Shown here: one piece after another, positions 1,261 through 24,304 of the stretch
Layout of the letters: each line of letters begins with the position of its first letter
How positions within the stretch are numbered: the first letter of the stretch is position 1
Made by a program: the position numbers and the translations under genes
The notes under the pieces: generated by a model
The model's database searches: none
Told to the model about the DNA's origin: nothing
Seen by the model: the letters and a program-made list of their open reading frames with translations, nothing else
Source: an uncultured Candidatus Saccharibacteria bacterium
GTDB lineage: Bacteria > Patescibacteriota > Saccharimonadia > Saccharimonadales > AWTP1-31
Direction of reading: 5' to 3'
Assembly: GCA_964442995.1 (NCBI GenBank)
Contig: CAYUBG010000001.1
Coordinates: forward strand, 1 to 24,304
Length of the DNA stretch: 24,304 nucleotides

Positions 1261-1264
1261 GATC

Positions 1265-1557: not shown

Positions 1558-1594
1558 TTGTGTGCCGGTAAGCCGATTAATTACTCGAACTATT

Positions 1595-1620: not shown

Positions 1621-1649
1621 AAAAAAGAGGCGTTTTGTTGCCTCTTTTT
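1621..1649 (-). terminator. Rho-independent (bidirectional) terminator after fusA
   Basis: AAAAAGAGGC-GTTTTGTT-GCCTCTTTTT with T-tracts on both strands, 28 nt past the fusA stop. Confidence 0.85.
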
Positions 1650-1677
1650 CATCTGAGACCTTAGCACTAAGAACTAT

Positions 1678-4016: not shown

Positions 4017-4020
4017 AATA

Positions 4021-4500: not shown

Positions 4501-4913
4501 TATTTACTCTCTTTCTTGGCACCGTACTTAGAACGGCCCTGTTTTCGATCTGAAACACCCTGAAGATCAAGATGTCCACGAACAATATGGTACCTAACAC
4601 CTGGAAGATCCGGAACACGTCCACCGCGTATTAGTACTACTGCATGCTCCTGCAGGGTATGACCTTCACCACCACTGTAAGCCCATACTTCGTGACCGTT
4701 GGTTAGGCGAACACGAGCAACCTTACGAAGTGCTGAGTTCGGTTTACGTGGGGTCTTTGTGGTTACTTTAATACAGACACCTCGTTTGAATGGAGATGGC
4801 TTTTCGTAGCTCTTCGTCTTTAAAGAGTTGGTAACCTTACGAAGCGCAGCAGTCTTAACTTTGTTAGACTTGCTCAAACGTGGTTTTCGAACTAGTTGAT
4901 TAATTGTTGGCAT
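4500..4913 (-). CDS. rpsL: 30S ribosomal protein S12
   Basis: [41 protein letters not shown]. Confidence 0.99.
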
Positions 4914-4940
4914 GTATAAAAATTTTCCTAAATTTTTACT

Positions 4941-5012
4941 AGTGTTCTGCGATTGGTGGTTGATGATTAGAACTCAGCACGGACTAATCACTCACACCAT
5001 TCGCGTATCACT
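4941..5012 (-). promoter_or_regulatory. Long stem-loop in the rpsL 5' leader (candidate ribosomal-protein leader)
   Basis: Nested pairings AGTG/CACT, GCGA/TCGC, TGGTG/CACCA, TGA/TCA, TGATTAG/CTAATCA; 23 bp in 72 nt. Confidence 0.6.
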
Positions 5013-5039
5013 CGTTAATATGTGAAACTCTTGAACTAG

Positions 5040-5068
5040 ATTGTAACAGATTTACAGTTGATCCGCAA
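5040..5068 (-). promoter_or_regulatory. Sigma70-type promoter for the str operon, overlapping the end of rpoC
   Basis: TTGCGG (5063-5068), 17 nt, TACAAT (5040-5045), with extended -10 TG. Confidence 0.65.
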
Positions 5069-8000: not shown

Positions 8001-8840
8001 AAGCATTTTGAGTCGCTTCATAAGCTTCTTTTTGCGTTGGCCCTTAGTGCCTTCAACTTCTTCAGCTAAATCTTGAATCAGTTTTGCAAGATCAATTTCA
8101 TCAAGTAGTTTCTGAATAGCTACGCCACCCATAGCAGCTTCAGCAATATCTTGATACTCGTCTGGTAGGTTACGGTAGTCAGTTTCTGAAATCAAACCAC
8201 ACTTAACTAAGCTTTCAAGCTGCTGCTTCTTGTGAAGGAAGTCTTCTGTTACTTCGTCAATTTCTTTACTCTGGGCTTCAGCCAAGGCTTTAACATCAGC
8301 GTTTTCTTCGGTAGCCCGGTCTTCAAAGCGCTTTTTAATTGCAGCTTTTGCAGCATCAAGCTCAGCTTCAGCATCTTTAAGGAACTGCTCTTTTTTCTCA
8401 ACGTCAACAGATGTAATAACGTATGAAGCGAAGTAAACAATGCGCTCAAGATTCTTAACTGTGATGTTAAGAAGCAAACCAATAGGGCTTGGAGTACCAC
8501 GCAGGAACCAAATATGTGCAACTGGGGCAGCAAGGTTGATGTGACCCATTCGTTCACGCCGTACAATAGAATTGGTAACAAGTTCACCATTCTTATCAAC
8601 AGCAGCTTCACGAGAGCGTACGCCCTTGTACTTAGCGTCGTGTGGGTTGATGTTCTTTACAGGACCAAAAATACGTTCACAAAACAGACCATCACGTTCA
8701 GGTTTCTGAGTTCGGTAGTTAATGGTTTCTGGTTTAGTAACTTCACCGTAGCTCCAGTCAATGATGTCGCTTGGGCTAGCAACAACCAGTCGAACGGCGT
8801 CGAAGTCAGTAATATTTGTGCTAAATGGGGTAGGTTTCAT
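5052..8840 (-). CDS. rpoC: RNA polymerase beta' subunit
   Basis: [12 protein letters not shown] catalytic motif, [37 protein letters not shown]; AGGAGG Shine-Dalgarno in the rpoB 3' end. Confidence 0.99.
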
Positions 8841-11800
8841 TTACGCCTCCTCCTTTACTTCGGGTTCAGCCGAATCGTTTTCGTTATCATCATTTGTATC
8901 ATCAAGTGCTATGGCGTCATCTGTAGAAACATCGGAAATTCCGGTGTCGTCCAAGATTTCGAATTCACTAGCAACCATTTCTTCAGTTACATCCATAGGA
9001 ACACTCTGTTCAGGGTGAACTTCTGGCATATGCTCAGCTTCGTCAGCTACCACTGCTTCTAGTACTTCTTCTGCATCGAATTCTTTACCTTCGTTAATTA
9101 GATCAACGCGAAGACTAAGACCTTGAAGTTCTTTTACAAGCACGTTAAAGCTTTCTGGAATCTTCGGACCAACAATTGGTTCTTGCTTAATGATTGATTC
9201 GTAGGCCTTAGAACGACCGTAAACGTCATCAGACTTAAGTGTCAGCATTTCTTGCAGGGTATTTGCAGCACCATATGCTTCTAGTGCCCATACTTCCATC
9301 TCTCCAAATCGCTGACCACCATTTTGCGCCTTACCACCAAGTGGCTGTTGAGTCACCATAGTGTACGGGCCAATACTTCGGGCGTGGATCTTATCTGCAA
9401 CCATGTGGTGCAATTTAATAATGTGCATGATGCCGACCGTTACTCGTTCTTTAAAGTATTCTCCGGTTCGTCCATCAATAAGTTCCTGCTTACCATCATC
9501 TGGCAAACCGGCTTTCTTGAGTTCAGCCTTAATAGTACTGACTGGAACACCGTTAAACGCAGGTGTTGCCGTAGTGTAACCAAGTACGGTTGCAGCTATA
9601 CCAAGATGTGTTTCGAACAACTGGCCAATGTTCATACGAGAAGGCACACCAAGTGGGTTAAGTACAATATCGACAGGAGTTCCATCTTCAGTGAATGGCA
9701 TATCTTCTTCTGGCATGATTCGAGCAACTACACCCTTGTTACCGTGACGTCCAGCAAGCTTATCGCCAACTGCGATCTTACGCATCTGAGCGACAAAGAC
9801 CTGTACCTGCATAAGCACACCGGCTTTAAGATCATGACCGTTTTCACGACTAAAGATCTTAACACCAACAACTTTTCCGTGCTTACCGTTGTTCATTCGT
9901 TGTGAAGTATCACGAACATCTTTAGCTTTTTCACCAAAGATCGCACGCAGCAGTCGTTCTTCAGAACTTAGCTCTTGTTCGCCCTTTGGTGTAATTTTAC
10001 CAACCAAAATGTCGCCAGCTTTTACTTCGGCGCCAATGCGTACAATACCGTTTTCGTCTAGGTGACGAAGGCTTTCTTCTGAAACATTCGGAATATCGCG
10101 TGTAACAATTTCAGGGCCAAGCTTAGTTTCACGAACTTCTACCATGTAATCACTAATATGAATACTAGTTAGTTCGTCGTCTTCTACGATGCGCCGTGAA
10201 ATAACAATTGAATCTTCGAAGTTATAACCACCCCACGGCATGAAGGCAACAGTTAAGTCTTTACCGAGTGCAAGTTCACCGCCATCAGTGCTCATGCCGT
10301 CAACTAGAACGTCGCCAGCTTTTACAGAATCACCGGTGTTAACAACAACTTTTTGGTTCATTGAAGAACCTTCATTTGTACGGACAAAATGCTGTAATTT
10401 GTAGGTTGTTGAGTTCTTAGCGTACTTAACAACCACTTCGCTTGCATCAGATTTTGTAACTGTACCGTCTGCTTCGGCATAAACTACCAGGCCGCTGTTC
10501 TTTGCAACAACTTCTTCCATACCAGTTCCAACCACAGGAGCCTTAGTCTTAATAAGTGGAACAGCTTGTTTCTGTTGGTTAGAGGCAATAAGAGCACGTC
10601 CTACAGCATCTTTTTCAGCGAAAGGAATCAGTGATGCTGTTGAACCAAGAATCTGGTTACGAGTTGCATCCATGTGGGTTACAAGTTCGGCGTCAACTTC
10701 TTCTGGCTGCAATTTAACACGTGCTGAAACACGTTCATCGGCGAATGAACCGTCTTTATTAAGTTCCATACCTGCTGATGCAATCACGGCCTTCTTTTCT
10801 TCGTCAGCATCTAGATAAACTACTTCTTTGGTTACTTTGCCGTTCTTAACAACTCGGTATGGTGATTCAATGAAGCCATATTCATTTACGCGGGCATATG
10901 AACCAAGGTTAAGCACCAAGCCAATGTTGGCACCTTCAGGCGTTTCTACAGTACATAAACGTCCATAGTGTGTTGGATGTGCATCACGCACTTCAAAGCC
11001 AGCGCGTTCTCTAGAAAGACCACCAGGACCCATAGAACTCAGGCGTCGCTTGTGGGCTAGTTCTGAAAGTGGGTTGGTCTGATCCATAAACTGTGAAAGT
11101 TGTGAACTTGCAAAGAATTCGCGAACAGCCGCGACAATTGGTCGGGCATTAATAAGCTGTGCAGGAGTAACAGTTTCAATCTCTGACATGCTCATGCGAT
11201 CTTTGGCATTTCGTTCCATTCGAAGCAAACCAATGCGGAATTGACGTTGTACTAGCTCACCAACCATTTTTACACGGCGGTTTGCAAGGCTATCAATATC
11301 ATCTGGAGCATCTTGCGTGTTATTTAGACGAATGATTTCCTTTACAATTGCTACAAGATCATCTAGTCGCATAACACGGTTTTCAGCTGTGTTGGCAACG
11401 TCAATTTCAAGACGTTTATTCATTTTATAGCGTCCAACACGTGAAAGATCAAAACGTTTGAAGTTGAAGAATACGTTTTCAATAAGACTTCGGGCGTTAT
11501 CTACAGTTGCAAGATCACCCGGACGAATACGTCGGTAAACTTCGATCAAAGCGTCGCTGTTACCTTTGCTTGGATCTTTAGCAATAGTTGCATCTAGGTA
11601 GTTAACTTCACCAGTATCAACATCTTTAAAGATATCTTTTAGCTGATTAGTCTGTGCGTAACCAAGGGCTCTTAGTAGTGTAGTAACGGCGATTTTACGT
11701 CGGCGATCAATTTTTACGTAAATTGCACCGTTAGCAGCTGTTTCGAATTCCAACCATGCGCCACGGCCGGGGATAAGCTTGGCGCCGTATAGGTTTCTTC

Positions 11801-12254
11801 CACCGCTTTTTTCGGCAGTAAAGAAGATACCAGGACTTCGAATAAGTTGACTTACAACAACACGTTCAGCACCATTAATTACAAAAGTACCACGTGATGT
11901 CATCCACGGGTAGTCACCAAGGTAGATTTCTTGTTCTTTAACTTCGCCAGTTACTTTATTAGTAAGTTCAACGTTCGCATATAATGGAGCGTCGAAACTA
12001 ACATTGTTTTCGCGAGCTTCAAGTTCGCTGATTTTTGGATCAGCAAAACGATAATCTTTGAAACGAAGTTCAAGTTTAGTGCCAGTATAGTCTTCTATTG
12101 GGTTAACCTCTGCGAAAATTTCGCCGAGGCCTTCCTGTACGAAGTTCGTAAACGACGTAGTTTGATGTTCAATTAAGTTTGGTAGCGCTAGCGCGTCATC
12201 GACCTGTGTAAAGTAGACTCGCTTGTTGCGCTTTTTCAGATCTGTCTTAGCCAT
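8841..12254 (-). CDS. rpoB: RNA polymerase beta subunit
   Basis: SQLSQFMDQ, ETPEG, GYNFEDS, GDKLAGRHGNKG, GGQRFGEME. Start moved to ATG 12254, preceded by AAGGAG. Confidence 0.99.
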   Translation of the reverse strand: MAKTDLKKRNKRVYFTQVDDALALPNLIEHQTTSFTNFVQEGLGEIFAEVNPIEDYTGTKLELRFKDYRFADPKISELEARENNVSFDAPLYANVELTNKVTGEVKEQEIYLGDYPWMTSRGTFVINGAERVVVSQLIRSPGIFFTAEKSGGRNLYGAKLIPGRGAWLEFETAANGAIYVKIDRRRKIAVTTLLRALGYAQTNQLKDIFKDVDTGEVNYLDATIAKDPSKGNSDALIEVYRRIRPGDLATVDNARSLIENVFFNFKRFDLSRVGRYKMNKRLEIDVANTAENRVMRLDDLVAIVKEIIRLNNTQDAPDDIDSLANRRVKMVGELVQRQFRIGLLRMERNAKDRMSMSEIETVTPAQLINARPIVAAVREFFASSQLSQFMDQTNPLSELAHKRRLSSMGPGGLSRERAGFEVRDAHPTHYGRLCTVETPEGANIGLVLNLGSYARVNEYGFIESPYRVVKNGKVTKEVVYLDADEEKKAVIASAGMELNKDGSFADERVSARVKLQPEEVDAELVTHMDATRNQILGSTASLIPFAEKDAVGRALIASNQQKQAVPLIKTKAPVVGTGMEEVVAKNSGLVVYAEADGTVTKSDASEVVVKYAKNSTTYKLQHFVRTNEGSSMNQKVVVNTGDSVKAGDVLVDGMSTDGGELALGKDLTVAFMPWGGYNFEDSIVISRRIVEDDELTSIHISDYMVEVRETKLGPEIVTRDIPNVSEESLRHLDENGIVRIGAEVKAGDILVGKITPKGEQELSSEERLLRAIFGEKAKDVRDTSQRMNNGKHGKVVGVKIFSRENGHDLKAGVLMQVQVFVAQMRKIAVGDKLAGRHGNKGVVARIMPEEDMPFTEDGTPVDIVLNPLGVPSRMNIGQLFETHLGIAATVLGYTTATPAFNGVPVSTIKAELKKAGLPDDGKQELIDGRTGEYFKERVTVGIMHIIKLHHMVADKIHARSIGPYTMVTQQPLGGKAQNGGQRFGEMEVWALEAYGAANTLQEMLTLKSDDVYGRSKAYESIIKQEPIVGPKIPESFNVLVKELQGLSLRVDLINEGKEFDAEEVLEAVVADEAEHMPEVHPEQSVPMDVTEEMVASEFEILDDTGISDVSTDDAIALDDTNDDNENDSAEPEVKEEA

Positions 12255-12414
12255 AGGCAGAATAAAGCTCCTTGGATTTAAGTGCTTCGTAAGCAACAGC
12301 TTAGAATGCGCATAAATACGTTAATTAAAATTGATCACCGAAGTTCCCTTAAGTCGTCTGTTTTGCTAGCGTGCACCAAAAGCAAAACGTCACTTACACT
12401 ACCTCTTGTACTCA

Positions 12415-12443
12415 ATTCTGCGCTATCAGATCAAAATTGTCAA
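12415..12443 (-). promoter_or_regulatory. Sigma70-type promoter for rpoBC
   Basis: Perfect TTGACA (12438-12443), 17 nt, CAGAAT (12415-12420). Confidence 0.7.
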
Positions 12444-12454
12444 CAATAAAGCTG

Positions 12455-13165
12455 TTAGTCCCTAACTTTTTCAATTGGATGACCACTTGTTGAAGCGTGG
12501 ATCCATAGTGCTCGAGGTTGCTGCGCACCATCACCGAGAGTAGCAATGCGTTGCCTCAGCGAAGAAATTGGCGGAATTAATCGTGAATCCCATCGTAAAG
12601 CACGCTTCATTCCGGCATTCGTGGCAGTATCTATTGCTGCAGTATTTTCTGGTCGTATCAGAGTTACCGAAAGGGCAACTTCGCTAGCTCCTAGAGCTAC
12701 CGAAGGATTTCGTAGAATATGTTTTAGGGTTTGTTCTGGCAATCCTTCCGGGTGACTATTAGCCACCCACCCAGATACAGACGAAACATCAACAAGCGAA
12801 TGAACACCAAGCACCCCTCCATACTGTGTGCCATGCCACGCCTGTATCACACGTAGAATACGTTGTTGTCTAGGAGTCAAGCGATCTTTTGCTGTAAAGC
12901 CGTATGCAACAATGTTATCTGGGTCTGTTGCAATCCAGGCATTAAAACCAGATCCAGAATCCAAAGTTGCCACGGCTGCACGAGCCGTAGACCGCCTTGC
13001 AGTTTCATTATGCATGTATAGCCTGGTGGCACTAGGAAATTCGGTATCTAGTCGCATTCGGTTATCTATAACAGCACACTGAAGTTTATATGCGTCATCT
13101 GGTTCTATTGGTCGGATAGTAAATTGTTCGGTTTCTAAAGCGCTCATTGCATTGTTATAACTCAT
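12455..13165 (-). CDS. Divergent GNAT (RimJ/RimL-like) fold protein, paralog A
   Basis: FTIRPIEPDDA N-terminus, VSGWV strand and IRPENTAAI...AGM motif-B-like segment; no canonical Q/RxxGxG loop. Confidence 0.55.
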   Translation of the reverse strand: MSYNNAMSALETEQFTIRPIEPDDAYKLQCAVIDNRMRLDTEFPSATRLYMHNETARRSTARAAVATLDSGSGFNAWIATDPDNIVAYGFTAKDRLTPRQQRILRVIQAWHGTQYGGVLGVHSLVDVSSVSGWVANSHPEGLPEQTLKHILRNPSVALGASEVALSVTLIRPENTAAIDTATNAGMKRALRWDSRLIPPISSLRQRIATLGDGAQQPRALWIHASTSGHPIEKVRD

Positions 13166-13206
13166 CTGATCAGATATTACCAGATGTTCCAGTAGTTTTT
13201 ATAAGG

Positions 13207-13884
13207 CTAGCTAGCAAGTTGCATGACATATTTGACGCCTGGATATGTTCTACCCTCTACCTTTACTGAATCTCTACCGCCAGATTCAAAGCCGTATGAA
13301 GGAAGTTCAAGCATATTTTCAGGCACGACTAATCTGTTTTGGTTGCCAGATTCAAACGGTACAACAGTCTGGATGGTGTCAACACCCGCTGCACGACATA
13401 CCGCTATGCCTCCCGCCAAAACCCCACTAGCAACTACCGAGTCTTCAAGTTTGTACGCCCTGGTTCGCTCACTGTCAAACCACGAAGATAAATGACGAGT
13501 CCGCTGTTTGGGAGAACGTATTTTTTGTACAATCCTATTAGAGAACTTTTCTGAATCTTGTGGAACACCCGCTACCATCGTGCCGATCGCTTGCAGATTA
13601 GCGGTCTCGTCTTCTAGACTTACAAGATACGCTCCGACAGATTTAGATCTTTCCAAAGCTTCAATTCTTTGTCGCGACGATTCTACTGTTTTATAACGTG
13701 CCGGCAAAGAAGGGTCAAGAAGCGCCGAACGAAAATCCTCTTCAGTAAATTGTGCATAAAGTTCAGTTACTGCTTCTGGGTGATCACCATCGGAACACAA
13801 ACGTTCAAAGTGGATATTAAATAAACCTATCGGCAAAGCATTGGTTGCTTGATCTGGAAAATTAAGCTCACGGTTTTTTGTCAT
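13207..13884 (-). CDS. Hypothetical protein, probable divergent GNAT fold, paralog B (225 aa)
   Basis: Start at ATG 13884, directly after TGGTATAAT. The longer track ORF overlaps the neighbouring gene. LSSWFD motif shared with its neighbours. Confidence 0.6.
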   Translation of the reverse strand: MTKNRELNFPDQATNALPIGLFNIHFERLCSDGDHPEAVTELYAQFTEEDFRSALLDPSLPARYKTVESSRQRIEALERSKSVGAYLVSLEDETANLQAIGTMVAGVPQDSEKFSNRIVQKIRSPKQRTRHLSSWFDSERTRAYKLEDSVVASGVLAGGIAVCRAAGVDTIQTVVPFESGNQNRLVVPENMLELPSYGFESGGRDSVKVEGRTYPGVKYVMQLAS

Positions 13885-13890
13885 ATGTAT

Positions 13891-13899
13891 ATTATACCA
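13891..13899 (-). promoter_or_regulatory. Extended -10 promoter, predicted leaderless mRNA
   Basis: TGGTATAAT followed 6 nt later by the ATG at 13884; no Shine-Dalgarno. Confidence 0.7.
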
Positions 13900-13939
13900 T
13901 TTTTTGTCAACTATTCGTAATTTCGCAATAACAAATAGT

Positions 13940-14584
13940 TTAAAGATTTTTAGTCCATAGCTCAGAAACATAGAATTTACCATCAGAAACAACACCCTTG
14001 ATACCTTTCGATTTGAATTCAAGTATGTCCGGATCGGCAATCAGACGATCGAGCGCAACGAGACGGCCAGCATAATCAGAACCACTCGAACGATCGATCA
14101 TGCAGACAGCATCAGCACCTTTGTGCCTCGCTAAATCTACTGCTGTAGATACAACATTGTAAGCAAACCCAGAAAACGTAAGTCTTCCGCGGTAAGGTTC
14201 AAGCGCATCTGTATCAACCCAGGCGCTGATTAATCTGTTATCCCGTTTTTTATGCAGAACTGAACGTTGCTCTATAACTGGGCTTACTGCAACCATTCCA
14301 ATAGGTTTAACACAGTTGCGTTCAAGCTTGTCTGATTCTACTATCACAAACGAATCTCTTGCCCGCACTTTTGTACCTGAACTTGGAAAATCTTCGGCTA
14401 CAACACCAGGATCTGCACCAACCGCTAGTAATTGTTCTGAGGTGTGTTGCGCTAGAAACTCTCCAAGAGCATCACGGTTGCTTCGGTAGTATAGATACTC
14501 ACCAAGAGGTCTAAGTATTGTAGGTTGCTTACGAACTTCACAGCCTCGTTCGTGTAAATGTGGGGATGTTGTTACATATGTCAC
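13940..14584 (-). CDS. Hypothetical protein, probable divergent GNAT fold, paralog C (214 aa)
   Basis: GTG start (uncertain); PIGMV and ISAWVD motifs, YRGR remnant loop, ARHKGADAV helix. Confidence 0.55.
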   Translation of the reverse strand: MTYVTTSPHLHERGCEVRKQPTILRPLGEYLYYRSNRDALGEFLAQHTSEQLLAVGADPGVVAEDFPSSGTKVRARDSFVIVESDKLERNCVKPIGMVAVSPVIEQRSVLHKKRDNRLISAWVDTDALEPYRGRLTFSGFAYNVVSTAVDLARHKGADAVCMIDRSSGSDYAGRLVALDRLIADPDILEFKSKGIKGVVSDGKFYVSELWTKNL

Positions 14585-14607
14585 TTTGGCTGCTCTATAT
14601 TCCTTGG

Positions 14608-15192
14608 TTATTTTGGAGGTTGGGTAATGATTTTGTCAATTAGACCGTACTTTAGTGATTCCTCGGAATTCATCCAGAAATCTCGTTCCATGTCTTCGTG
14701 GATTCTTGCACGTTTTTGCCCAGTATTCTTGGTCATAATCTCTTCCAGAAGTCCTTTTATGCGAAGGCTTTCTTTTAGATCAATCTCTTGATCGGTTACT
14801 TTGCCTCTGGTACCGCTTGACGGTTGATGAATCATAACAGTTGAATTAGGAAGTAAGAATCGTTTACCCTTTGTACCGGATGAAAGTAAAAATGCAGCCG
14901 CGGAAGCTTGCATACCTATACCAACAGTTTGGACGTCGTTTTGAATATACTTCATGGTATCGTAGATGGCTAAGGCATCGTATGCGCTTCCACCAGGGCT
15001 ATTAATATACATGTAGACATCTTTTTTGGCATCTTCAGATTGCAAGAACAGAAGCTGTGCGACAATAATACCAGCAGTATGTTCATTCACCTCATCGTGA
15101 AGAAAGATTATACGATCTCTTAACAAACGACTGTAGATGTCGAAAGCTCGTTCGCCCTGGCCAGATGGTTCTATAACAGTAGGTATCAACAT
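14608..15192 (-). CDS. clpP: ATP-dependent Clp protease proteolytic subunit
   Basis: DIYSRLLRDRIIFL, YINSPGG, catalytic ASAA (Ser), IHQP (His), ERD (Asp). Confidence 0.98.
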   Translation of the reverse strand: MLIPTVIEPSGQGERAFDIYSRLLRDRIIFLHDEVNEHTAGIIVAQLLFLQSEDAKKDVYMYINSPGGSAYDALAIYDTMKYIQNDVQTVGIGMQASAAAFLLSSGTKGKRFLLPNSTVMIHQPSSGTRGKVTDQEIDLKESLRIKGLLEEIMTKNTGQKRARIHEDMERDFWMNSEESLKYGLIDKIITQPPK

Positions 15193-15201
15193 AATACCCT
15201 G

Positions 15202-15230
15202 ATTGTAGAGTTTCTAGCACTCGCTGTCAA
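15202..15230 (-). promoter_or_regulatory. Sigma70-type promoter for clpP
   Basis: TTGACA (15225-15230), 17 nt, TACAAT (15202-15207), 9 nt, ATG. Confidence 0.85.
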
Positions 15231-15240
15231 CGACTGCTAA
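15214..15240. promoter_or_regulatory. CIRCE element (HrcA operator)
   Basis: Minus strand TTAGCAGTC-N9-GAGTGCTAG versus consensus TTAGCACTC-N9-GAGTGCTAA: 8/9 in each arm with exact spacing; the -35 box lies in the spacer. Confidence 0.85.
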
Positions 15241-15528
15241 TTATTCTGAGTTTTCTACTTCACTTTGCAATAAAGGCTCTCGACGGACAGCCACGCCCTT
15301 AACGATGCTCGCCAATCCGCCGAATGCTAAAGCACTGACACAAATCATACGCTCCACACCCCGGCCCTGGAACGCCTGGTCGTACTGAGCTCCAATAGAG
15401 GCAATTAGCCATGAACTGCCGTACAATATTCCTTCAGCTGGTGTTTCGGGCTTTAGTTCTTTCAATCCATCCAGTAGATCTGATTCTGCCTTATTAACGA
15501 CGGATTTAAGAACATTATGTAGTGACAT
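15241..15528 (-). CDS. Hypothetical protein with hydrophobic segments (95 aa)
   Basis: ATG 2 nt after the tig stop; fills the gap up to the CIRCE element. Confidence 0.55.
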   Translation of the reverse strand: MSLHNVLKSVVNKAESDLLDGLKELKPETPAEGILYGSSWLIASIGAQYDQAFQGRGVERMICVSALAFGGLASIVKGVAVRREPLLQSEVENSE

Positions 15529-15530
15529 CG

Positions 15531-16814
15531 CTACTTCTTAGTGGCAATTTCAACTAATCGATCAACTGTTTTTTCAGTCAGAAGCCTTGAGGCGACTTCG
15601 CGTTGCATTTCTGGCTGATCAAACTGGTCGGCATTTTGCTTGTATTGAACTTTATAAAGTTGTGTACGTTCAGCAATCTCTTCATTTGTTACTGTAATCG
15701 CTTCTTGTTCCGCAACCTCGGCAAGCACCATTCCCACTGAAACTCTTCGTTCAGCCTGTGGTTGCAGTTCTTTCTTCTTCCATTCTTCTTCGTCTTTAAA
15801 CCCGGCTTGCTTTAAGTATTCAGCTTTTGTCATGCCTCTGTACACAAGGTTTTGACTGAAATCCTGTTCGAGCATAGCAACTTGATCGTTCACCAAAACT
15901 TCAGGTAGCTTAAATTCAGATTTCTTAACTAGTTCTTCAACTAGTTCATCTTTCATACGATTCAACGCTTCTTGCTGTTTCTGTTCTTCTAGCTGATTTT
16001 TGATATCGGCGATTAGTTCTTTAGCTGTCTTGAATGGGCCGATCTTAGCAGCCAACTCATCATTAACTTCTGGTAGTGTAACTGCTTGAACATTTTTAAC
16101 AGTTACATTGAAGGTTATTGCTGTACCGGCAAGTGTTTGGGCGTGGTAATCCTTAGGAAATGATAGTTTGAGTTCTTTTGTATCACCTTTTTTAACACCG
16201 ATAAGTCCATCTTCAAAGCCAGGTATGAACGAGTTACTTCCAAGATTCAATGAATAATCTGTACCACTCGCGCCAGATACAGACTTTCCATCTTTATCAG
16301 TACCAGTGAAGTCGATTATCACATCGTCACCCTTTTTTGCTGGCTTTTCTGAATCTATTTTCTCGGCCATTTGTGAACGAAGATTACTCAGCACATCTTC
16401 AACATCTTTTTCACTTACCGTAACTTTTGCTACAGCCTTTTTGATCTTTTTGTAATCACCAAGCTTAACTTTGGGCATTATTTCAACTTCAGCTACAAAT
16501 TCGAGTTCAGTATATGGTACAAATTTTCCAATAGTCACATCTGGTTGATTCAGTGTGCGCAATTTCTGTTCTTCAACAGCTTTACCGTAAAAATCATTGA
16601 TAGCGTGGTTGATTACGCTTACCTGAAGCTGATTCTCGTCAAGTTGTTTTTCTACAACCGTAAGGGGTGCCTTACCTTTTCTAAAACCGGCAACTTTTAC
16701 CGTTTTAGCCTGCTCTTGAAGCTCGTGCTGTTTGGCGTGGACCAACTCTTCAAGCCCAAGAGTAATGGTTAATTTAACTTTAGTGTCTGAAATGTCTTTA
16801 CGTGTTACTTGCAT
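15531..16814 (-). CDS. tig: Trigger factor
   Basis: GFRKGKAP ribosome-binding motif, FKBP-type domain (FIPGFED, FPKDYHA); 427 aa. Confidence 0.97.
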   Translation of the reverse strand: MQVTRKDISDTKVKLTITLGLEELVHAKQHELQEQAKTVKVAGFRKGKAPLTVVEKQLDENQLQVSVINHAINDFYGKAVEEQKLRTLNQPDVTIGKFVPYTELEFVAEVEIMPKVKLGDYKKIKKAVAKVTVSEKDVEDVLSNLRSQMAEKIDSEKPAKKGDDVIIDFTGTDKDGKSVSGASGTDYSLNLGSNSFIPGFEDGLIGVKKGDTKELKLSFPKDYHAQTLAGTAITFNVTVKNVQAVTLPEVNDELAAKIGPFKTAKELIADIKNQLEEQKQQEALNRMKDELVEELVKKSEFKLPEVLVNDQVAMLEQDFSQNLVYRGMTKAEYLKQAGFKDEEEWKKKELQPQAERRVSVGMVLAEVAEQEAITVTNEEIAERTQLYKVQYKQNADQFDQPEMQREVASRLLTEKTVDRLVEIATKK

Positions 16815-16941
16815 AAGTGGCCATTATGCCACATCAGATGAAAAATTGCGAATCTTGGCCTATGAACTGGCTTTTTTGTACATATAGGTGCATACTAGTT
16901 AGTAATAAATGGTGTGTAAGGTACGGAAGGTTACGAAAACA

Positions 16942-17001
16942 ATGTCAAAAGACAAAGGCCGTAAAGAAAAGAAAAAACCTAAGCAAAGCAAGGAAGTGTA
17001 A
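16942..17001 (+). CDS. Small basic peptide MSKDKGRKEKKKPKQSKEV (19 aa)
   Basis: Not in the ORF track. GGAAGG upstream; the TAA lies 1 nt before the next ATG. Confidence 0.45.
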   Translation: MSKDKGRKEKKKPKQSKEV

Positions 17002-17002
17002 C

Positions 17003-17227
17003 ATGGCGACCGTTGCCTATTCACTCGACGAAGCAGCAGTACAACTGCGAGTCTTAGAAAAAGATCCTACTATGAACACGGTTGGCGCCTACAGCCCAAC
17101 TGCAACGGATTTTCCAGATCAGATCCGACCATTCAGCGAAGTACACCTTGAATACTTACGCAAGAATAAACACGTTAATCCGGATCATTACATCTCAAAT
17201 CTTCGTATAATGCTCAAAAAACGTTAG
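17003..17227 (+). CDS. Hypothetical protein (74 aa)
   Basis: AGGAAG upstream of ATG 17003 (MATVAYS...HYISNLRIMLKKR). The longer track ORF runs through the tig promoter region and is unlikely. Confidence 0.7.
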   Translation: MATVAYSLDEAAVQLRVLEKDPTMNTVGAYSPTATDFPDQIRPFSEVHLEYLRKNKHVNPDHYISNLRIMLKKR

Positions 17228-17231
17228 TAAC

Positions 17232-17244
17232 AGCCCTTCGGGTT
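17232..17244 (+). terminator. Weak hairpin between convergent genes
   Basis: AGCCC-TTC-GGGTT followed by TTATT; short stem containing a G-U pair. Confidence 0.35.
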
Positions 17245-18537
17245 TTATTGCAGTACTTTTACTATGGCGTCGATTGTAAGGGTGTCTTCTTGTTGCGATT
17301 CTACATTTCTGAGAATGAATGAAGAGTTAGTAAGTTCTTGTTCACCAACGAAAAGCAGGTATGGTACGCCCAGCTTAAGAGCAGCTTTGATCTGTTTTTC
17401 TGGTTTTCTATCTGTTAGATCAACAGCTACATTTATGCCTTTGGAACGCAATTCCCGCGCAACTTCGTGCGCTTCAGCAAGCACGTCTCCAATGGTTACA
17501 ACGTAAACCTGTGTTGAAGATACTAGCTTTGGCTCCAGCTTGTGGCTTGCAAGGAAGTTTTCTATCGGAGCGTCACCCATACCAAAACCTACGGTAGCAA
17601 TTGGTTCAACGCCGAAAGCACCCACTAGGCCATCATAGCGACCGCCACCAAACATGGCACGATTATTTTCCGGGTCAAGGTCGAATACTTCAAACACAAT
17701 GTCAGTGTAGTATTCGAAACCACGCATTAAAGTGATATCAAAAGTTGCTGCTGTAATACCATGATCGGCTAGAAGTGTGAATAGAATCTGAATTTCTTTC
17801 ACCGCTTGAGTATCTCTTAGACTCTCTGGGAGATCAGCTAGTGTTTTAGCTTTAATTAGAAGATACAATCTTTCAAGTCCAGATTCGACTTGCTCAGGTT
17901 TAAAGATCTGGCGGGCCTCAGCTACAAACACATCTGCAGCCATTTTATCTTTCTTATCAAACAACTGAACCATCCGTTTTGCCTGCATTGCATCAAGTTC
18001 TAAGTAACGGCTCATAATTAAGTTAATTAATTTGCGACTGTTCACTTTAATTTGATACATGCTTTCATTGGCGCCGAATTCCTTCATAATTGCATCTGCC
18101 ATTGAAATGATCTCAAGATCAGCATCAACGGTTGCTACGCCAAAAATATCAACGTTTAGTTGCCAAAATTGCCGGTTCCTGCCACGTTGAGGTCGTTCAT
18201 ATCGCCAACAATCAGGAATTGAGTACCATCTAAGCGGATACGGTAATTCCTGACGTCGCGCAGCTACCATACGTGAAACACTAGGTGTCATTTCGGGGCG
18301 CATAACCACGGTCCGTCCACCACGATCTGTGAAGCTATAAGTCTGTTCGTTAACAATTTCATCTGAGGTCTTAGATGTATATAGTTCAATAGGCTCAAGA
18401 ACTGGAGCTGTATATTCTTCGTAGCCGTAGCGTTCGCACACCTTCTTCCAGGTATTAAAAATATAGCTTTGCAGTCGCTTGTCTTCAGGGTAAAAGTCCC
18501 GTGCACCCTTATAGCTTTGTGTACTTAGTTTTGCCAT
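17245..18537 (-). CDS. hisS: Histidine--tRNA ligase
   Basis: KGARDFYP, RPEMT, RYERPQRGR.RQF.Q, RGFEYY, GGGRYDGL and an anticodon-binding C-terminal domain. Start set at MAKLSTQ. Confidence 0.97.
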   Translation of the reverse strand: MAKLSTQSYKGARDFYPEDKRLQSYIFNTWKKVCERYGYEEYTAPVLEPIELYTSKTSDEIVNEQTYSFTDRGGRTVVMRPEMTPSVSRMVAARRQELPYPLRWYSIPDCWRYERPQRGRNRQFWQLNVDIFGVATVDADLEIISMADAIMKEFGANESMYQIKVNSRKLINLIMSRYLELDAMQAKRMVQLFDKKDKMAADVFVAEARQIFKPEQVESGLERLYLLIKAKTLADLPESLRDTQAVKEIQILFTLLADHGITAATFDITLMRGFEYYTDIVFEVFDLDPENNRAMFGGGRYDGLVGAFGVEPIATVGFGMGDAPIENFLASHKLEPKLVSSTQVYVVTIGDVLAEAHEVARELRSKGINVAVDLTDRKPEKQIKAALKLGVPYLLFVGEQELTNSSFILRNVESQQEDTLTIDAIVKVLQ

Positions 18538-18634
18538 GATTACATCTATTCTATAGTCTTTATGCTCAAAAAGAAAATATCTCTCGTTCGCAATACTCAC
18601 TCAATGAGGTTCTGCATCCTCGCTTTTGTTAGCA

Positions 18635-18669
18635 AAAGAAAATACCCCGATTGCTCGGGGTACTTTCTT
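18635..18669 (-). terminator. Rho-independent terminator after tRNA-Leu
   Basis: GTACCCCGA-GCAA-TCGGGGTAT followed by TTTCTTTT; A/T tracts on both sides. Confidence 0.85.
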
Positions 18670-18754
18670 TGGTACGGATGAGAGGACTTGAACCTCCACG
18701 CCTTGCGGCACTAGCTCCTAAGGCTAGCGTGTCTACCAATTCCACCACTCGCGC
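18670..18754 (-). tRNA. tRNA-Leu(TAG), encoded CCA, mispaired acceptor stem
   Basis: D arm GTGGAATTGGTAGACAC, anticodon stem CTAGC/GCTAG with TAG, long variable arm, GGAGG-TTCAAGT-CCTCT, A73, CCA; 85 nt. Confidence 0.9.
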
Positions 18755-18777
18755 GTAAGTGCTGGCACCGGAGTATT

Positions 18778-19311
18778 TTACTGGATTTTCTTGTAAAACA
18801 CCAGCTGTGCGTCTCCATAATGTTTTTGCTGCACAATCTCTAGGCCTTCAAAAGGATAAGTATCGGCTTTGCCGGGCCAAGAAAGAACTAATGTACCGTT
18901 GTCTGACAAATGGCGAGGCATAACCTTGAGATCACGAAATGGCAAGTTGTCATATGGTGGATCTAACAGTACTAGGTCAAACTGCTGGTTCTGATGACGT
19001 GTGGACCAAGCATTAGCAAAAGCTCTAATTGATTTAATTTTGTCAACAATACCGAGCGACTCAATGTTACGTGCAATAACTTCACTGGCCCCTTTATCCG
19101 CCTCGATGCATACAACATTAGACGCCCCACGACTTATAGCTTCAAATGATAGCGCTCCGCTTCCGGCGAAAGCATCTAGAACCGTTAGTCCACTTATGTC
19201 GCCTAGTACCCCGAACAGGCCACCTCGGACTTTATCGCTCATGGGGTGGGTTCGATGACCATGAGGCGATTCAAAGATACGACCACCCAAGTTACCGGCA
19301 ATAATTCTCAT
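18778..19311 (-). CDS. rsmD: 16S rRNA (guanine966-N2)-methyltransferase RsmD family
   Basis: MRIIAG, PMSDKVR, LDAFAGSGALSFEAISRGA, DPPY. Confidence 0.9.
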   Translation of the reverse strand: MRIIAGNLGGRIFESPHGHRTHPMSDKVRGGLFGVLGDISGLTVLDAFAGSGALSFEAISRGASNVVCIEADKGASEVIARNIESLGIVDKIKSIRAFANAWSTRHQNQQFDLVLLDPPYDNLPFRDLKVMPRHLSDNGTLVLSWPGKADTYPFEGLEIVQQKHYGDAQLVFYKKIQ

Positions 19312-20135
19312 CGCTTGGCGGGTTTAACTTTGCCTGAATCCAATAATGCACTATACCAGGCCAAAGTGACGGTGTTAATTATGGTAGGCGCCATCTTAGT
19401 CCGTACTTCCAGAGCTAATTTAGTAGTCCAACCTCGTTTGTAATAGCGGTCGTACATATCTAGAATTGCTATTTCTCGGGCGCGACGCGTAAACCAAGCG
19501 CCAATTCCGATTTCACAAATTTCGTCAATCATCTTTTGGTTTGGCACGTTATCGCTGAAGGTAAGGGGCAGTATTAGTGTGGCAATACCTAGCTCGAACA
19601 TTCCGTGTGTGCTTATTAAGCCCTTGGGACCCCACATTTTCCAGTTATTTTTAACCTGCTCGCGACGTGTTTCGCCCGGAATGACCAGCTTTTCTTTTAT
19701 TGTGGTACGTGTTTCGATGCCTTCACCACCACGCAACTCTATAAGCTTTTCTTCGTAGGGATAGTGATGTGCAGGGGTTAATCCATCTACCAACGCATGT
19801 GCCAGCCAGGCTGCTTCGAAGGCGGTGCGTTCTTTGTTGCCCTCTTTTAAATGACTGACTAGCAAATTGTAGTGCGTGTTAATTAAGTCAATTAGCTGCG
19901 AATCTTGATTGTCGAATGGGCTGTAGTAATGCCACGGTTCATCTTTGGCTGGGCTTTTTCGTTTGATGCCATCAGGGCCATTTTTACCCTCAAAATGGAG
20001 TATTTTGTTACTTGTTGGAAAGACGCTGTTGTCACTTAGAAGTTTAGCCAGATGATTACGGGCAACCCTATCAATTTTTTGATGAGCTCCCAAAATTCGA
20101 CCTGAAGCTGCGGTTAGAGTTGTGCCTGAATACAC
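19308..20135 (-). CDS. Putative Zn-dependent phospholipase C / P1-nuclease-fold hydrolase (275 aa)
   Basis: H18, D55, H69, H113-x3-D117-x5-H123 and H177-x3-E181 reproduce the Bacillus cereus PLC ligand spacing. GTG start with GAGG Shine-Dalgarno; ATGA overlap with rsmD. Confidence 0.7.
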   Translation of the reverse strand: MYSGTTLTAASGRILGAHQKIDRVARNHLAKLLSDNSVFPTSNKILHFEGKNGPDGIKRKSPAKDEPWHYYSPFDNQDSQLIDLINTHYNLLVSHLKEGNKERTAFEAAWLAHALVDGLTPAHHYPYEEKLIELRGGEGIETRTTIKEKLVIPGETRREQVKNNWKMWGPKGLISTHGMFELGIATLILPLTFSDNVPNQKMIDEICEIGIGAWFTRRAREIAILDMYDRYYKRGWTTKLALEVRTKMAPTIINTVTLAWYSALLDSGKVKPAKR

Positions 20136-20190
20136 TACACCCTCGCTTTAAGCGTGACATCGATAGTAAATAATTGCTGGTAGATATTCA

Positions 20191-22227
20191 TTAGTTTAGA
20201 TTTGTTATAGCTCGCAGTTGCGAAACTCGTTCATAAAGATGCTTATATTTTAGCAGGTCTAGCCCAGACTCGATAGTCTGTTGCGCGCATTGCCTGGCAG
20301 ATGAAATCAAAGCTGTATCTGTTAATTTAGCTATACGTAGATCTAGTGCACCGTGCTGCAAAGTACCGTAAATAGCCCCTGGACCACGTAGCTCTAGATC
20401 TAACTCGGCTAAGCGAAATCCATCGTTGGTAGTTTCTAGTGCTTTTAGCCGTTTAGATGGAGCTTTTGAGTCGCTTAGAACTAAATAGCAAAAGCCCTGA
20501 TGAGCGCTCCGACCGACTCGTCCGCGCAGCTGATGTAATTGAGCTAAACCAAACCTATCGGCATTTTGAATGATCATAACCGTAGCATTAGGCACGTCAA
20601 CCCCCACTTCCACAACAGTCGTCGAAACCAAAACATCAATATCACCCTTAGCAAAATCTTGCATTATTTGGTTTTTTTGAGCCACGGGTAATTGGCCATG
20701 TAGCAGGCCGACACGGCGATGTTTATATGGACCATTGGCAAATTTTCTGTAAGTTTCTTCGGCTGCTGCCGCTGGCAAAACATCGCTTTCACGTACTAGC
20801 GGACAGACTACGAATACTTGGCTGCCAGATTCAATTTGGTCGTCTATTTTTTTGTGAAGGCCTGCTTGACTGTTAGGAGAAATGATCTCAGTCTCTACAG
20901 GCAAACGATTGCTTGGGCGATTATGAATGATTGATATGTCAAGCTCTCCATAAAGTGTAAGCGCAAGGCTACGTGGAATTGGCGTGGCTGTCATTGTCAT
21001 GATGTGCGGTGCATGACCGGCCTTTTTCATAAGTGATTTGCGTTGTTCGACACCGAATCGGTGCTGCTCATCGATTATTACCAAAGCCAACCGATGCATA
21101 TCAACCTTTTCCTGAATTAATGCATGGGTGCCAATTATGAGTTTTGCCGTGCCGTCAGCTATCCGCCGTCTGGCTTCTTGTTTTTGTTTGTTGCTCATTC
21201 CGCCTACTAACAGCACGACACTTTTGTCGTATCCCAAGTGACGTAACATGTCATACACCGTATCGGCATGCTGCCTGGCTAGTAGCTCTGTCGGAGACAT
21301 GATGGCAACCTGAAGCCCTTGCTTGATTACCATTAATGCCGCCATAGTTGCAACGACTGTTTTGCCAGAACCAACGTCGCCCTCAATCAGCCTGTTCATA
21401 GGCTGATTGGCGGACATATCTTGATATATCTGCCAGATAACCCGGCGCTGGTCGTCTGTTAACACGAAAGGTAGCTTAGCTGTAAATTGCCTGGCCAGAC
21501 TAACATCAAACGGTATTGGCAGAGATGATTCTGAGGCATTGGATCGTTTGTTCAGTAGCGCGGCGAGAGAAAGCTCAAAAACTTCCTCGAATCCCAGTCG
21601 CTCTCTTGCCAACTCTAAATGGTGTGCATTATTTGGAAAATGAACTCCACAAATTGCGTCTGCCCGACTTAGCAATTGTTGAGATGTAACGATATCTGCA
21701 GGCAAGGTCTCTGGCAGATTGCGTATAAGATTGACCGTGGCAGCCACAATTTTACGCATCTGATTACTGGTAAGGCCCTTAGATTCTCTGTAAACTGGCA
21801 CTATACGAGCGGTGTTGAGCGGAAAATCGCTTGCTAATTCGCATGTTGGATTAAGAATCGCGAATTTCTGATGACTTAGAGCAAACTCACCGCTTATATA
21901 GTATTTTTGATGTGGCTTTATGGCAGAAGAGCGATACGGCTGATTAAACCAAACAAGTCTTATGCTGCCAGAGCCATCTGTTGCCACGGCTTCAGTAATA
22001 TGCATACCACGTCTGACGTAACGACCCTGGCTACCAGATATTGTTGCTTCAATTGTTACTGCCCCGGGTTTTAGACTGGCAATATTGGTGATTTTGGAGA
22101 AATCGTTATATTTGCGTGGGTAGTAGTCTATAACATCCGCTACGGTATTTAGGCCTAGGCGCTGCAAAGTTGCAGCCATAGCCGGACCTACGCCCTTGAT
22201 CACACTAATCGGGTCAGATAACTCCAT
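20191..22227 (-). CDS. recG: ATP-dependent DNA helicase RecG
   Basis: GDVGSGKT, IIDEQHRFGV, MTATPIPRSL, QLHQLRGRVGR, DLELRGPG. Confidence 0.98.
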   Translation of the reverse strand: MELSDPISVIKGVGPAMAATLQRLGLNTVADVIDYYPRKYNDFSKITNIASLKPGAVTIEATISGSQGRYVRRGMHITEAVATDGSGSIRLVWFNQPYRSSAIKPHQKYYISGEFALSHQKFAILNPTCELASDFPLNTARIVPVYRESKGLTSNQMRKIVAATVNLIRNLPETLPADIVTSQQLLSRADAICGVHFPNNAHHLELARERLGFEEVFELSLAALLNKRSNASESSLPIPFDVSLARQFTAKLPFVLTDDQRRVIWQIYQDMSANQPMNRLIEGDVGSGKTVVATMAALMVIKQGLQVAIMSPTELLARQHADTVYDMLRHLGYDKSVVLLVGGMSNKQKQEARRRIADGTAKLIIGTHALIQEKVDMHRLALVIIDEQHRFGVEQRKSLMKKAGHAPHIMTMTATPIPRSLALTLYGELDISIIHNRPSNRLPVETEIISPNSQAGLHKKIDDQIESGSQVFVVCPLVRESDVLPAAAAEETYRKFANGPYKHRRVGLLHGQLPVAQKNQIMQDFAKGDIDVLVSTTVVEVGVDVPNATVMIIQNADRFGLAQLHQLRGRVGRSAHQGFCYLVLSDSKAPSKRLKALETTNDGFRLAELDLELRGPGAIYGTLQHGALDLRIAKLTDTALISSARQCAQQTIESGLDLLKYKHLYERVSQLRAITNLN

Positions 22228-22234
22228 GCCTTAG

Positions 22235-22240
22235 ATTATA
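22235..22240 (-). promoter_or_regulatory. -10 box, predicted leaderless recG mRNA
   Basis: Perfect TATAAT 7 nt before the ATG. Confidence 0.55.
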
Positions 22241-22259
22241 AGGTAAGAATAAAATCTAC

Positions 22260-23066
22260 TTACTTTGCCTTGCGAACTAAAAAGAAAGTACTTGGCCCGA
22301 AGTAAGTATGTGCTAACAGAGCCTGAAGAGGTTTTTCTATGGCTAGCATTAACGACATAGGCACAATTTTCTTGAGTCCTGGGCTACGCAGATTAGATAC
22401 AGACAAAACCTTTTCGACTTTGAGCCCTGCATGCGCTAATTGTTTGATTACGGTTTTGGGGTTGTGGTTAACAAAAGCAATCGTGTCTTTATTGCGGTTC
22501 TTGCTTGAACGGATATCCACTGGTTCAACCGGCAATTTCTGGCCTTTTATAAAGTGCTTTAGTCGATTGCGGGCATGCGCATAATTCGCCACCTCTAGAA
22601 CTAAGTAGCCGTCGTCTGTTAATACCCGGGCCAGCTCGGCAAATTCTATACTAGGATCTGGCAAATGATGCATTACACGGATCATGGTTATTAGATCGAA
22701 TGACTTATCATCGAAATCTAGCGAGTCAGCCTGGGTACGTACACATTTGATTTCTTTGTGGCCTTTTAAAAAGTCCTTAGCTATATCGAGCTGCTGCTGA
22801 CTAGGTTCCGCTAATGTAACCTTGCTAGCAAATTTTTCTAGGAATATACATAGACGTCCATAGCCGCCACCAATATCAACAGCAGATTTGAACTTACGAC
22901 CACGTAATAGGCGACTAATAGCTAATCGTTCTGACTCGTTTTCGTAGTCGCGACCATCCCAGTAATGCAGATAATTGTAGTCATCGTCATCGTAGTGAGT
23001 GGCCTTTTTTTTCGTGTTAGATTTAGTGGTTGAAGTGGGTTTTGGTGTGGTAGATTGTTTTGTCAT
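22260..23066 (-). CDS. Class I SAM-dependent methyltransferase
   Basis: VDIGGGYGR motif I, FDDKSFDLI, RVMHHLPDP, RVLTDDGYLVL. Substrate unknown. Confidence 0.85.
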   Translation of the reverse strand: MTKQSTTPKPTSTTKSNTKKKATHYDDDDYNYLHYWDGRDYENESERLAISRLLRGRKFKSAVDIGGGYGRLCIFLEKFASKVTLAEPSQQQLDIAKDFLKGHKEIKCVRTQADSLDFDDKSFDLITMIRVMHHLPDPSIEFAELARVLTDDGYLVLEVANYAHARNRLKHFIKGQKLPVEPVDIRSSKNRNKDTIAFVNHNPKTVIKQLAHAGLKVEKVLSVSNLRSPGLKKIVPMSLMLAIEKPLQALLAHTYFGPSTFFLVRKAK

Positions 23067-23075
23067 ATAGCCAGC

Positions 23076-23084
23076 AGTATAGCA
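23076..23084 (-). promoter_or_regulatory. Extended -10 promoter for the methyltransferase
   Basis: TGCTATACT 9 nt before ATG 23066; no Shine-Dalgarno. Confidence 0.55.
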
Positions 23085-23088
23085 CGTA

Positions 23089-24304
23089 CTAGTCGGCGAA
23101 TTGAACTAGTGCCAGGCTATTTTTACCTCGTCGAAGAACAATATAGCCATCAAGTGCATCATCATATGAAATTGTACTTTGAGACAATGGTATTTGTTGG
23201 CCATTGATATAGACTGCGTTGCTTTCCAGGAATCTGCGAGCCTCTGTTTTGGACGTTGCAAGACCAGTAGATACAAGTACGTCAGGTAATGCAACGGCGG
23301 ATTTTGCTGTGTATGTTGGAAGCTCTGACGTGAGAGTCTGAAAATCATCTTGTTGCAAGTTTTTATAATCTGCCGTGACGAAGATTGTCTCACTAATCCT
23401 AGCCACACTATCTGCCTTGGATTTACCGTGTACTAGTTTTGTGACTTCATATGCCAGAACTTTTTGGGCTTTACGTTCGTTACGATTTGCCTGAAATTGT
23501 TCGGCAATCTCATCAATTTGATTTTTGGTAAGCAATGTATATATTTTGAGATAGTCAAGCACACCCTCGTCATCGACGTTCAGCCAGAATTGGTAGAACT
23601 TAAAAGGACTGGTCAACTCGGGATCGAGCCAGACAGCGCCGCCTTCAGTTTTACCAAACTTAATTCCAGTAGCCTTATTAATGATCAGCGGAGTAGACCA
23701 AATGTGTGCAGTCTTTCCTGTAATACGGCGAATGAGTTCAACACCGGCGATGCTATTGCCCCACTGATCGGCCCCGCAAAGTTGCAAAGTGACACCTTTT
23801 TCACGAAAGAGGTGCAAGAAGTCGTAACCCTGAATTAGCGAGTAACTAAACTCTGCATAGCTGATGCCCGCTCCGCCTTCACTTAATCGGGATTGCACAA
23901 ACTCTCTCCCAAGCATCTGTCGCATTGGTACGTGCTTGCCAATGTCACGCAAAAATTGCATATAGCCAATATCTTTAAACCAGTCATAGTTATCAACAAC
24001 TTCAAATTCTAATCCTGCAAAGATTTTTTTGTACTGTTCTACAATAGCTGCTTTGTTTTTTGCAACCTCATCAACCGTCTTGAGATCACGTTCCTGGGCC
24101 TTGCCATCAGGGTCACCAATTAGGCCGGTCGCGCCACCAACCAGCAATACTGCCTTATGTCCATGTGCTATGAAATGACGCACCATCATCGCCGCTGCAA
24201 AATTACCAATCTGCATACTTGAAGCGCTGGGATCGACCCCCCAATAGAACGTTATAGGACCTTTATCTAATTCAGATGGATCATTGAAAGTTGTTTGGTT
24301 TACA
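23089..24304 (-). CDS. tyrS: Tyrosine--tRNA ligase, partial (5' end beyond window)
   Basis: The frame stays open to the window edge (VNQTTF...YWGVDPSASSMQIGN); GGATGLIGDP, FSYSLIQGYDF, GADQWGN, KFGKT, S4-like C-terminus. Confidence 0.97.
   Translation of the reverse strand, partial: VNQTTFNDPSELDKGPITFYWGVDPSASSMQIGNFAAAMMVRHFIAHGHKAVLLVGGATGLIGDPDGKAQERDLKTVDEVAKNKAAIVEQYKKIFAGLEFEVVDNYDWFKDIGYMQFLRDIGKHVPMRQMLGREFVQSRLSEGGAGISYAEFSYSLIQGYDFLHLFREKGVTLQLCGADQWGNSIAGVELIRRITGKTAHIWSTPLIINKATGIKFGKTEGGAVWLDPELTSPFKFYQFWLNVDDEGVLDYLKIYTLLTKNQIDEIAEQFQANRNERKAQKVLAYEVTKLVHGKSKADSVARISETIFVTADYKNLQQDDFQTLTSELPTYTAKSAVALPDVLVSTGLATSKTEARRFLESNAVYINGQQIPLSQSTISYDDALDGYIVLRRGKNSLALVQFAD

What the first reader, a model, noticed from the sequence alone, without database searches (positions are those of the whole stretch)
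18670..18754. tRNA-Leu(TAG) with a chimeric-looking, mispaired acceptor stem
Seen: 5' GCGCGAG against 3' CATCCGT gives G-U, C-G, G-C, C.C, G-U, A.A, G-C, plus a G-U at the T-stem base, while the D, anticodon and variable arms and CCA are intact. The 5' side would match CTCGCGC and the 3' side would match (A/G)CGGATG, as if halves of two different Leu tRNAs were joined near the T loop. Established: T-loop/3' regions are common integrase crossover sites, and acceptor-stem editing is known in organelles and some archaea. Inference: an integration/excision scar, a tRNA needing repair or editing, a pseudogene, or an assembly chimera.
Basis: partly seen in the sequence, partly recalled or inferred. 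Interest (0 to 1): 0.65.

Follow-up and report, generated by a model that had tools for sequence, protein, structure and literature searches.

The report
Assembly chimera inside a tRNA-Leu gene
The mispaired leucine tRNA is almost certainly not a real gene: the assembler joined DNA from two different co-occurring bacteria at a 52-base stretch that their tRNA genes share, so the two halves of this contig come from different organisms.

Summary
The mispaired acceptor stem is in the sequence as described. It is best explained as an assembly join between two organisms. Relatives carry two normal alleles of tRNA-Leu(TAG), GCGCGAG/CTCGCGC and GCGGATG/CATCCGT, identical over 52 bp (window 18697-18748). 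The window has the first allele's 5' end and the second's 3' end.

The contig changes organism at that spot. Right of it, RecG is 96% identical to the bin's sister species. Left of it, RpoB is 98% identical to another family and only about 76% to the bin's own. 4-mer composition flips there too.

The bin holds the true 3' half (start of contig C97) and a second, native hisS-tig-clpP-rpoB-rpoC (C22). Two public contigs show the left-hand organism with an intact GCGGATG tRNA, the same terminator and a 99% identical HisS. Four unrelated sequencing runs each cover one side only. All 41 relatives checked have fully paired stems. No Thg1-like editor was found, and no integrase nearby.

The source reads were not available. 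The scan found the same artefact before on other DNA (e1-5316927). Window 1-18696 is not this bin's genome.

The parts
18749..18754 (-). tRNA positions 1-6 (GCGCGA), allele A, from organism Y (the bin's own population, family f1 genus g1)
   Evidence: Same 5' end and upstream flank in sister genome G001. Chimera equals allele A at positions 4, 5, 6.
18697..18748 (-). 52-bp core (tRNA positions 7-58) identical in both alleles; the join lies somewhere in it and cannot be placed more finely
   Evidence: G001 contig C72 stops at 18697. Contigs OEIV010003018.1 and Ga0138256_10125606 stop matching at 18748. Loose ends at 18748 in runs X3 and X4.
18670..18696 (-). T arm, 3' acceptor strand CATCCGT, discriminator A and CCA, allele B, from organism X (family f46)
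   Evidence: Chimera equals allele B at positions 59, 73, 76, 77, 78, 81. Identical in G261, G284, L268, L271.
18634..18669 (-). Terminator-like inverted repeat after the tRNA, from organism X
   Evidence: Seen in the sequence. Near-identical downstream of the intact allele-B tRNA in L268 and L271. Function is inferred.
1..18696 (-). Left segment (hisS, tig, clpP, rpoB, rpoC, rpsL, rpsG, fusA): DNA of organism X, foreign to the bin
   Evidence: 92-95% DNA identity to G305 (f46). RpoB 98% to G305 and 76% to G001; sister to G305 in the tree, 100/88. 4-mer score -24.5 against +7.5 on the right.
18749..24304 (-). Right segment (rsmD, 275-aa ORF, recG, methyltransferase, tyrS): DNA of organism Y, the bin's own population
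   Evidence: 93% DNA identity to G001 over 18697-23091; RsmD, RecG 96%. Only 40-56% protein identity to G305. Covered by runs X2 and X4 only.

Best explanation
An inter-genome misassembly. Two small-genome bacteria of one order but different families share the gene order recG-rsmD-tRNA-Leu(TAG)-hisS-rpoB, and their tRNA-Leu(TAG) genes are identical over 52 bp. That core is a shared node in the assembly graph. The assembler entered it from organism Y and left it into organism X, making a tRNA with Y's 5' strand and X's 3' strand. Y's true continuation was left as contigs C97 and C22 in the same bin. SHOWN: the two sides have different origins; both parental loci exist with normally paired stems; the bin holds Y's 3' half. 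INFERRED: that the join was made by the software rather than in a cell; that thin coverage of Y near the core favoured the wrong exit; that C97 runs directly into C22.
For: (1) Window 5' end plus the start of C97 gives a perfectly paired tRNA found letter for letter in 9 related genomes. (2) C22 is a second hisS-tig-clpP-rpoB-rpoC; its RpoB is 95.5% identical and sister to G001 (100/100), while the window's RpoB is 98.1% identical and sister to G305 of family f46. (3) Public contigs OEIV010003018.1 and Ga0138256_10125606 carry a 99% identical HisS and nearly the same terminator behind an intact GCGGATG...CATCCGT tRNA and a different rsmD (40% to the window's; the OEIV contig is 97% DNA-identical to G305 there). 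(4) Runs X1 and X3 cover only the left side, X2 and X4 essentially only the right; in X3 and X4 contigs leave the window at 18748 into the GCGGAT allele; none of the listed pieces bridges the sides. (5) 4-mer composition switches at the tRNA, and held-out C22 scores like the bin. (6) Other assemblies break in the same core: G001 C72 ends at its last base, G006 C7 begins at its first, G042 C21 starts inside it. (7) All 41 relatives have 0 mismatches; the hybrid pattern is not found among GTDB species genomes.
Against: A 52-bp repeat is short enough that many assembler settings would resolve it, and there is no N gap at the join. X's own 5' half is not in the bin, as expected if it was binned elsewhere, but not shown. 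Logan contigs show presence, not absence, and the run organisms are relatives (about 94-98% identical), not the same strains.
Confidence: 0.96

Rival explanations
1. A real recombinant: a Y cell took up at least 18.7 kb of X's chromosome (hisS to fusA) by homologous recombination with one crossover in the shared tRNA core, and C97/C22 come from non-recombinant Y cells in the same sample.
For: It predicts the same sequence. No N gap at the join. G000 and G001 show 90-97% patches in a roughly 75% background, which could mean recombination within the genus.
Against: The flanks are only 65-74% identical between the families. It would replace RNA polymerase and ribosomal genes and cripple the only tRNA-Leu(TAG) found, while CTA is a common Leu codon (rough count). 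The native copy is in the same bin. No laid run joins the sides.
Confidence: 0.02
2. Integration or excision scar: an integrative element replaced the tRNA's 3' end with its own copy.
For: tRNA 3' ends are common integration sites (own knowledge). An orphan 3' half exists on C97, which is how a displaced attR fragment would look.
Against: What follows the tRNA is core genome of another family, not an island. The 3' half and its terminator are X's native chromosomal sequence. The only PF00589 integrase found is on C67, beside tRNA-Arg(CCT). C97 encodes a GNAT-domain protein and appears to lead into native hisS.
Confidence: 0.01
3. A genuine tRNA repaired by acceptor-stem editing, or a tolerated or decayed gene.
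For: Acceptor-stem editing exists in eukaryotic mitochondria (PMC4284800).
Against: That review restricts 5' editing to pairs 1-3 and reports no such events in bacteria or archaea; here the mismatches are at pairs 4 and 6. No Thg1/TLP (PF04446) was found in the 95%-complete bin. All nine allele-diagnostic positions sort into one switch from A to B, unlike decay. No relative shares the mismatches.
Confidence: 0.01

Closest known systems
Inter-genome chimeric contigs from de Bruijn (k-mer) metagenome assembly (e.g. Lui et al. 2021, PMC8172020)
   Same: A path through the graph that is not real genomic sequence, joined at sequence identical between co-occurring genomes. That paper reports Salmonella/E. 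coli chimeric contigs and a roughly 24-kb misassembled contig portion in a bin.
   Different: Here the shared stretch is only 52 bp inside a tRNA, the partners are different families, the join is mid-contig with conserved gene order hiding it, and the acceptor stem records it.
Bacterial class II tRNA-Leu(TAG), Rfam RF00005
   Same: Both parental alleles are ordinary: long variable arm, discriminator A, encoded CCA, paired stems.
   Different: The hybrid has two mismatches and a central G-U and is not seen in any relative.
tRNA-targeting integrative elements (attL/attR)
   Same: Hybrid tRNA plus an orphan 3' fragment elsewhere.
   Different: No island, no adjacent integrase; the 3' half is another organism's native gene end with its core genes.
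Mitochondrial tRNA 5' editing by Thg1-like proteins (PMC4284800)
   Same: Gene-encoded acceptor-stem mismatches.
   Different: Mismatches here are at pairs 4 and 6, not 1-3; no Thg1-like gene found; not reported in bacteria.

Membership tests
Inter-genome chimeric contig | The two sides belong to different lineages | tested here: met
   Left RpoB 98% to f46 and 76% to f1; right RecG 96% to G001 and 51% to G305
Inter-genome chimeric contig | The switch falls in a stretch identical between the partners | tested here: met
   52-bp core 18697-18748; matches to each parent stop at its edges
Inter-genome chimeric contig | The true continuation exists separately in the same assembly | tested here: met
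   C97 begins with the allele-A 3' half; C22 duplicates hisS, tig, clpP, rpoB, rpoC
Inter-genome chimeric contig | Each parental arrangement occurs intact in independent data | tested here: met
   X locus in L268 and L271; allele A exact in 9 genomes; one-sided cover in 4 runs of 4 studies
Inter-genome chimeric contig | Source reads do not support the junction or show a depth step | not testable with these tools
   Source run not among those served
Integrative-element att scar | Accessory island or integrase beside the tRNA | tested here: not met
   Flanks are rsmD and hisS; the only integrase found is on C67
Integrative-element att scar | Host genome resumes on both sides of the site | tested here: not met
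   The whole 18.7 kb to the contig end is f46-like
5'-edited tRNA (Thg1-like protein pathway) | Mismatches confined to acceptor pairs 1-3 | tested here: not met
   Mismatches at pairs 4 and 6
5'-edited tRNA (Thg1-like protein pathway) | A Thg1/TLP polymerase in the genome | tested here: not met
   PF04446 not found in G000 (95% complete); the control rings in M. acetivorans
5'-edited tRNA (Thg1-like protein pathway) | Mature tRNA differs from the gene | not testable with these tools
   No RNA data for this organism among the runs listed

The most novel reading that the evidence does not exclude
A living interfamily recombinant in which a crossover inside the shared tRNA-Leu core brought in at least 18.7 kb of core genes (RNA polymerase, S12/S7, EF-G) and left a mispaired but tolerated tRNA.
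Probability: 0.02. Interest if true: 0.75.

Novelty: not a real feature. Interest (0 to 1): 0.07.

Why it matters
It has no biological novelty, but it matters for curation. About 18.7 kb of this species-representative bin, including rpoB, rpoC, fusA, rpsL, rpsG, tig and hisS, comes from another family while the bin reports only 3% contamination. Other findings in window 1-18696 (unusual EF-G, beta' without zinc cysteines, S12 changes, clpP operator) describe organism X, not the bin's population. A mispaired tRNA acceptor stem is a cheap flag for such joins, and the scan has now met this at tRNA-Leu(TAG) twice.

Tried and rejected
A relaxed ARAGORN run (-ps80 with introns) gave only noise and was replaced by the default run. 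Exact-protein look-ups for RsmD and HisS found nothing. I first thought the 3' half came from genus g2 (G002, G016), which has the same allele; rejected because the left-hand genes are only 66-73% identical to g2 but 92-95% to f46. I considered that only 18697-23091 is a foreign patch in X; rejected because tyrS and beyond follow the right-hand organism in run cover and composition. The reciprocal hybrid (GCGGATG...CTCGCGC) was not found in 401 genomes of the order and not in the bin. Runs with small word shares that I did not lay were not used. One literature search on tRNA-centred chimeras returned nothing. The five genomes flagged unpublished (G350, G320, G361, G279, G352) enter only the whole-sample tallies; no specific claim rests on them.

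Full report
Observation. The window holds one tRNA, Leu(TAG), on the minus strand at 18670-18754, between rsmD and hisS. The genome is a 790-kb, 97-contig bin, 95% complete with 3% contamination.

Two parental alleles. I extracted tRNA-Leu(TAG) from 41 related genomes, and none has a mismatch in the acceptor stem. Two alleles matter. Allele A is GCGCGAG ... GAAGG/CCTTT ... CTCGCGC. Allele B is GCGGATG ... GGAGG/CCTCT ... CATCCGT. They differ at nine positions. The window equals A at 4, 5, 6 and B at 59, 73, 76, 77, 78, 81, so there is a single switch inside a 52-bp identical core, window 18697-18748. Cloverleaf energies are -20.4 (A), -18.9 (B) and -8.2 kcal/mol (hybrid).

The missing half is in the bin. 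Contig C97 begins inside the core and continues with the allele-A 3' end. Window 5' end plus C97 gives a tRNA found exactly in nine relatives. C97 then encodes a GNAT-domain protein. Its last open frame continues through a 6-bp overlap into the start of C22 and ends there at a stop that overlaps the next start codon; a 6-bp overlap is weak, so this link is inferred. C22 carries a second hisS, tig, clpP, rpoB and most of rpoC, 44-79% identical in protein to the window's copies.

The contig changes organism at the tRNA. Right of the core, DNA is 93% identical to the same-genus genome G001, whose contig ends exactly at 18697; RsmD and RecG are 96% identical. Left of the core, identity to G001 falls to about 70%, but is 92-95% to G305 of family f46 all the way to the contig end. 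In an RpoB tree of 40 rows, the window copy is sister to G305 within a 100/99 f46 clade, and the C22 copy is sister to G001 at 100/100. A 4-mer score (bin against G305) is negative in every 3-kb block up to 18000 and positive from there to 45000; held-out C22 scores +11.3, like the bin. No other G000 contig matched the 371 kb of G305 that I sampled above 72%, so X is not the bin's main population.

Both parental loci exist independently. Public contigs OEIV010003018.1 and Ga0138256_10125606 encode a HisS 99% identical to the window's, behind nearly the same terminator and an intact allele-B tRNA. Their match to the window stops at 18748, and upstream they carry a different rsmD, 40% identical to the window's. 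Of four runs from four studies, X1 and X3 cover 8000 to about 18750 at depth mostly 25-50 (X1 patchy) and almost nothing to the right. X2 and X4 cover the right side at depth 2-8 and show only conserved-gene noise on the left. X3 has a 15,955-nt contig ending at 18709, and loose ends at 18748 in X3 and X4 read as allele B's 5' end. The hybrid pattern was not found among GTDB species genomes (the own record may be left out), nor the reciprocal one in 401 genomes of the order.

Mechanism. Gene order around this tRNA is conserved across the order and the core is nearly invariant, so in a mixed sample the core is a shared node. Several other assemblies break in it (G001, G006, G042), and G305 lacks the tRNA, with a contig ending in rsmD. 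Here the assembler went through it from Y into X. C97 overlaps the core by only 11 bases and C22 has four scaffold gaps, which suggests thin coverage of Y; that is inference. That k-mer assembly can produce paths and chimeric joins that are not real sequence is documented (PMC8172020).

Rivals. An integration scar fails because the downstream DNA is another family's core genome and the only integrase found is on C67. Editing fails because known 5' editing concerns pairs 1-3 in organelles and is not reported in bacteria (PMC4284800), and no Thg1-like gene was found.

Verdict. I had reached this reading before consulting earlier findings; one of them (e1-5316927) reports the same kind of artefact in a tRNA-Leu(UAG) of another genome, which I did not check. 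The practical result is that window 1-18696 should be attributed to the f46 organism.

Noticed in passing
window 1-18696: All genes here belong to organism X (family f46).
   Followed up: partly
G000 C2:13389-21681, C3:2010-4169, C5:6233-9488, C13:1646-3692, C75, C95: Patches 90-97% identical to G001 in a background of about 70-80%. The C5 patch starts at tRNA-Asn and the C2 patch ends near tRNA-Gln. This could be recent exchange within the genus or further mixing in one of the two bins.
   Followed up: no
G000 C67:930-2450 (L265): A tyrosine integrase (PF00589, E 4e-44) lies about 0.9 kb from tRNA-Arg(CCT); possibly an island end.
   Followed up: no
L031:306-1292 (G000 C97, minus strand): ORF with an N-terminal GNAT domain followed by a region that looks to me like diaminopimelate epimerase (GEFCGNA and ACGSG motifs; no Pfam hit), split by a scaffold gap. 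Homologs lie near the same tRNA in G022 and G009.
   Followed up: partly
tRNA-Leu(TAG) in 41 relatives (L003-L236): The acceptor stem varies by fully compensated blocks (GCGCGAG, GCGGATG, GGGGATG, GCCGCGG, GCCGTGG) while the core stays almost fixed; the same alleles recur in different families.
   Followed up: no
G000 C3, C27, C57, C81, C92, C97 contig ends: Six contigs begin or end inside or at a tRNA gene, showing that tRNAs are the usual break points of this assembly.
   Followed up: no
G000 whole bin: No tRNA-Leu(TAA) among the 21 tRNAs called; several other tRNAs are also missing, so this is probably incompleteness.
   Followed up: no
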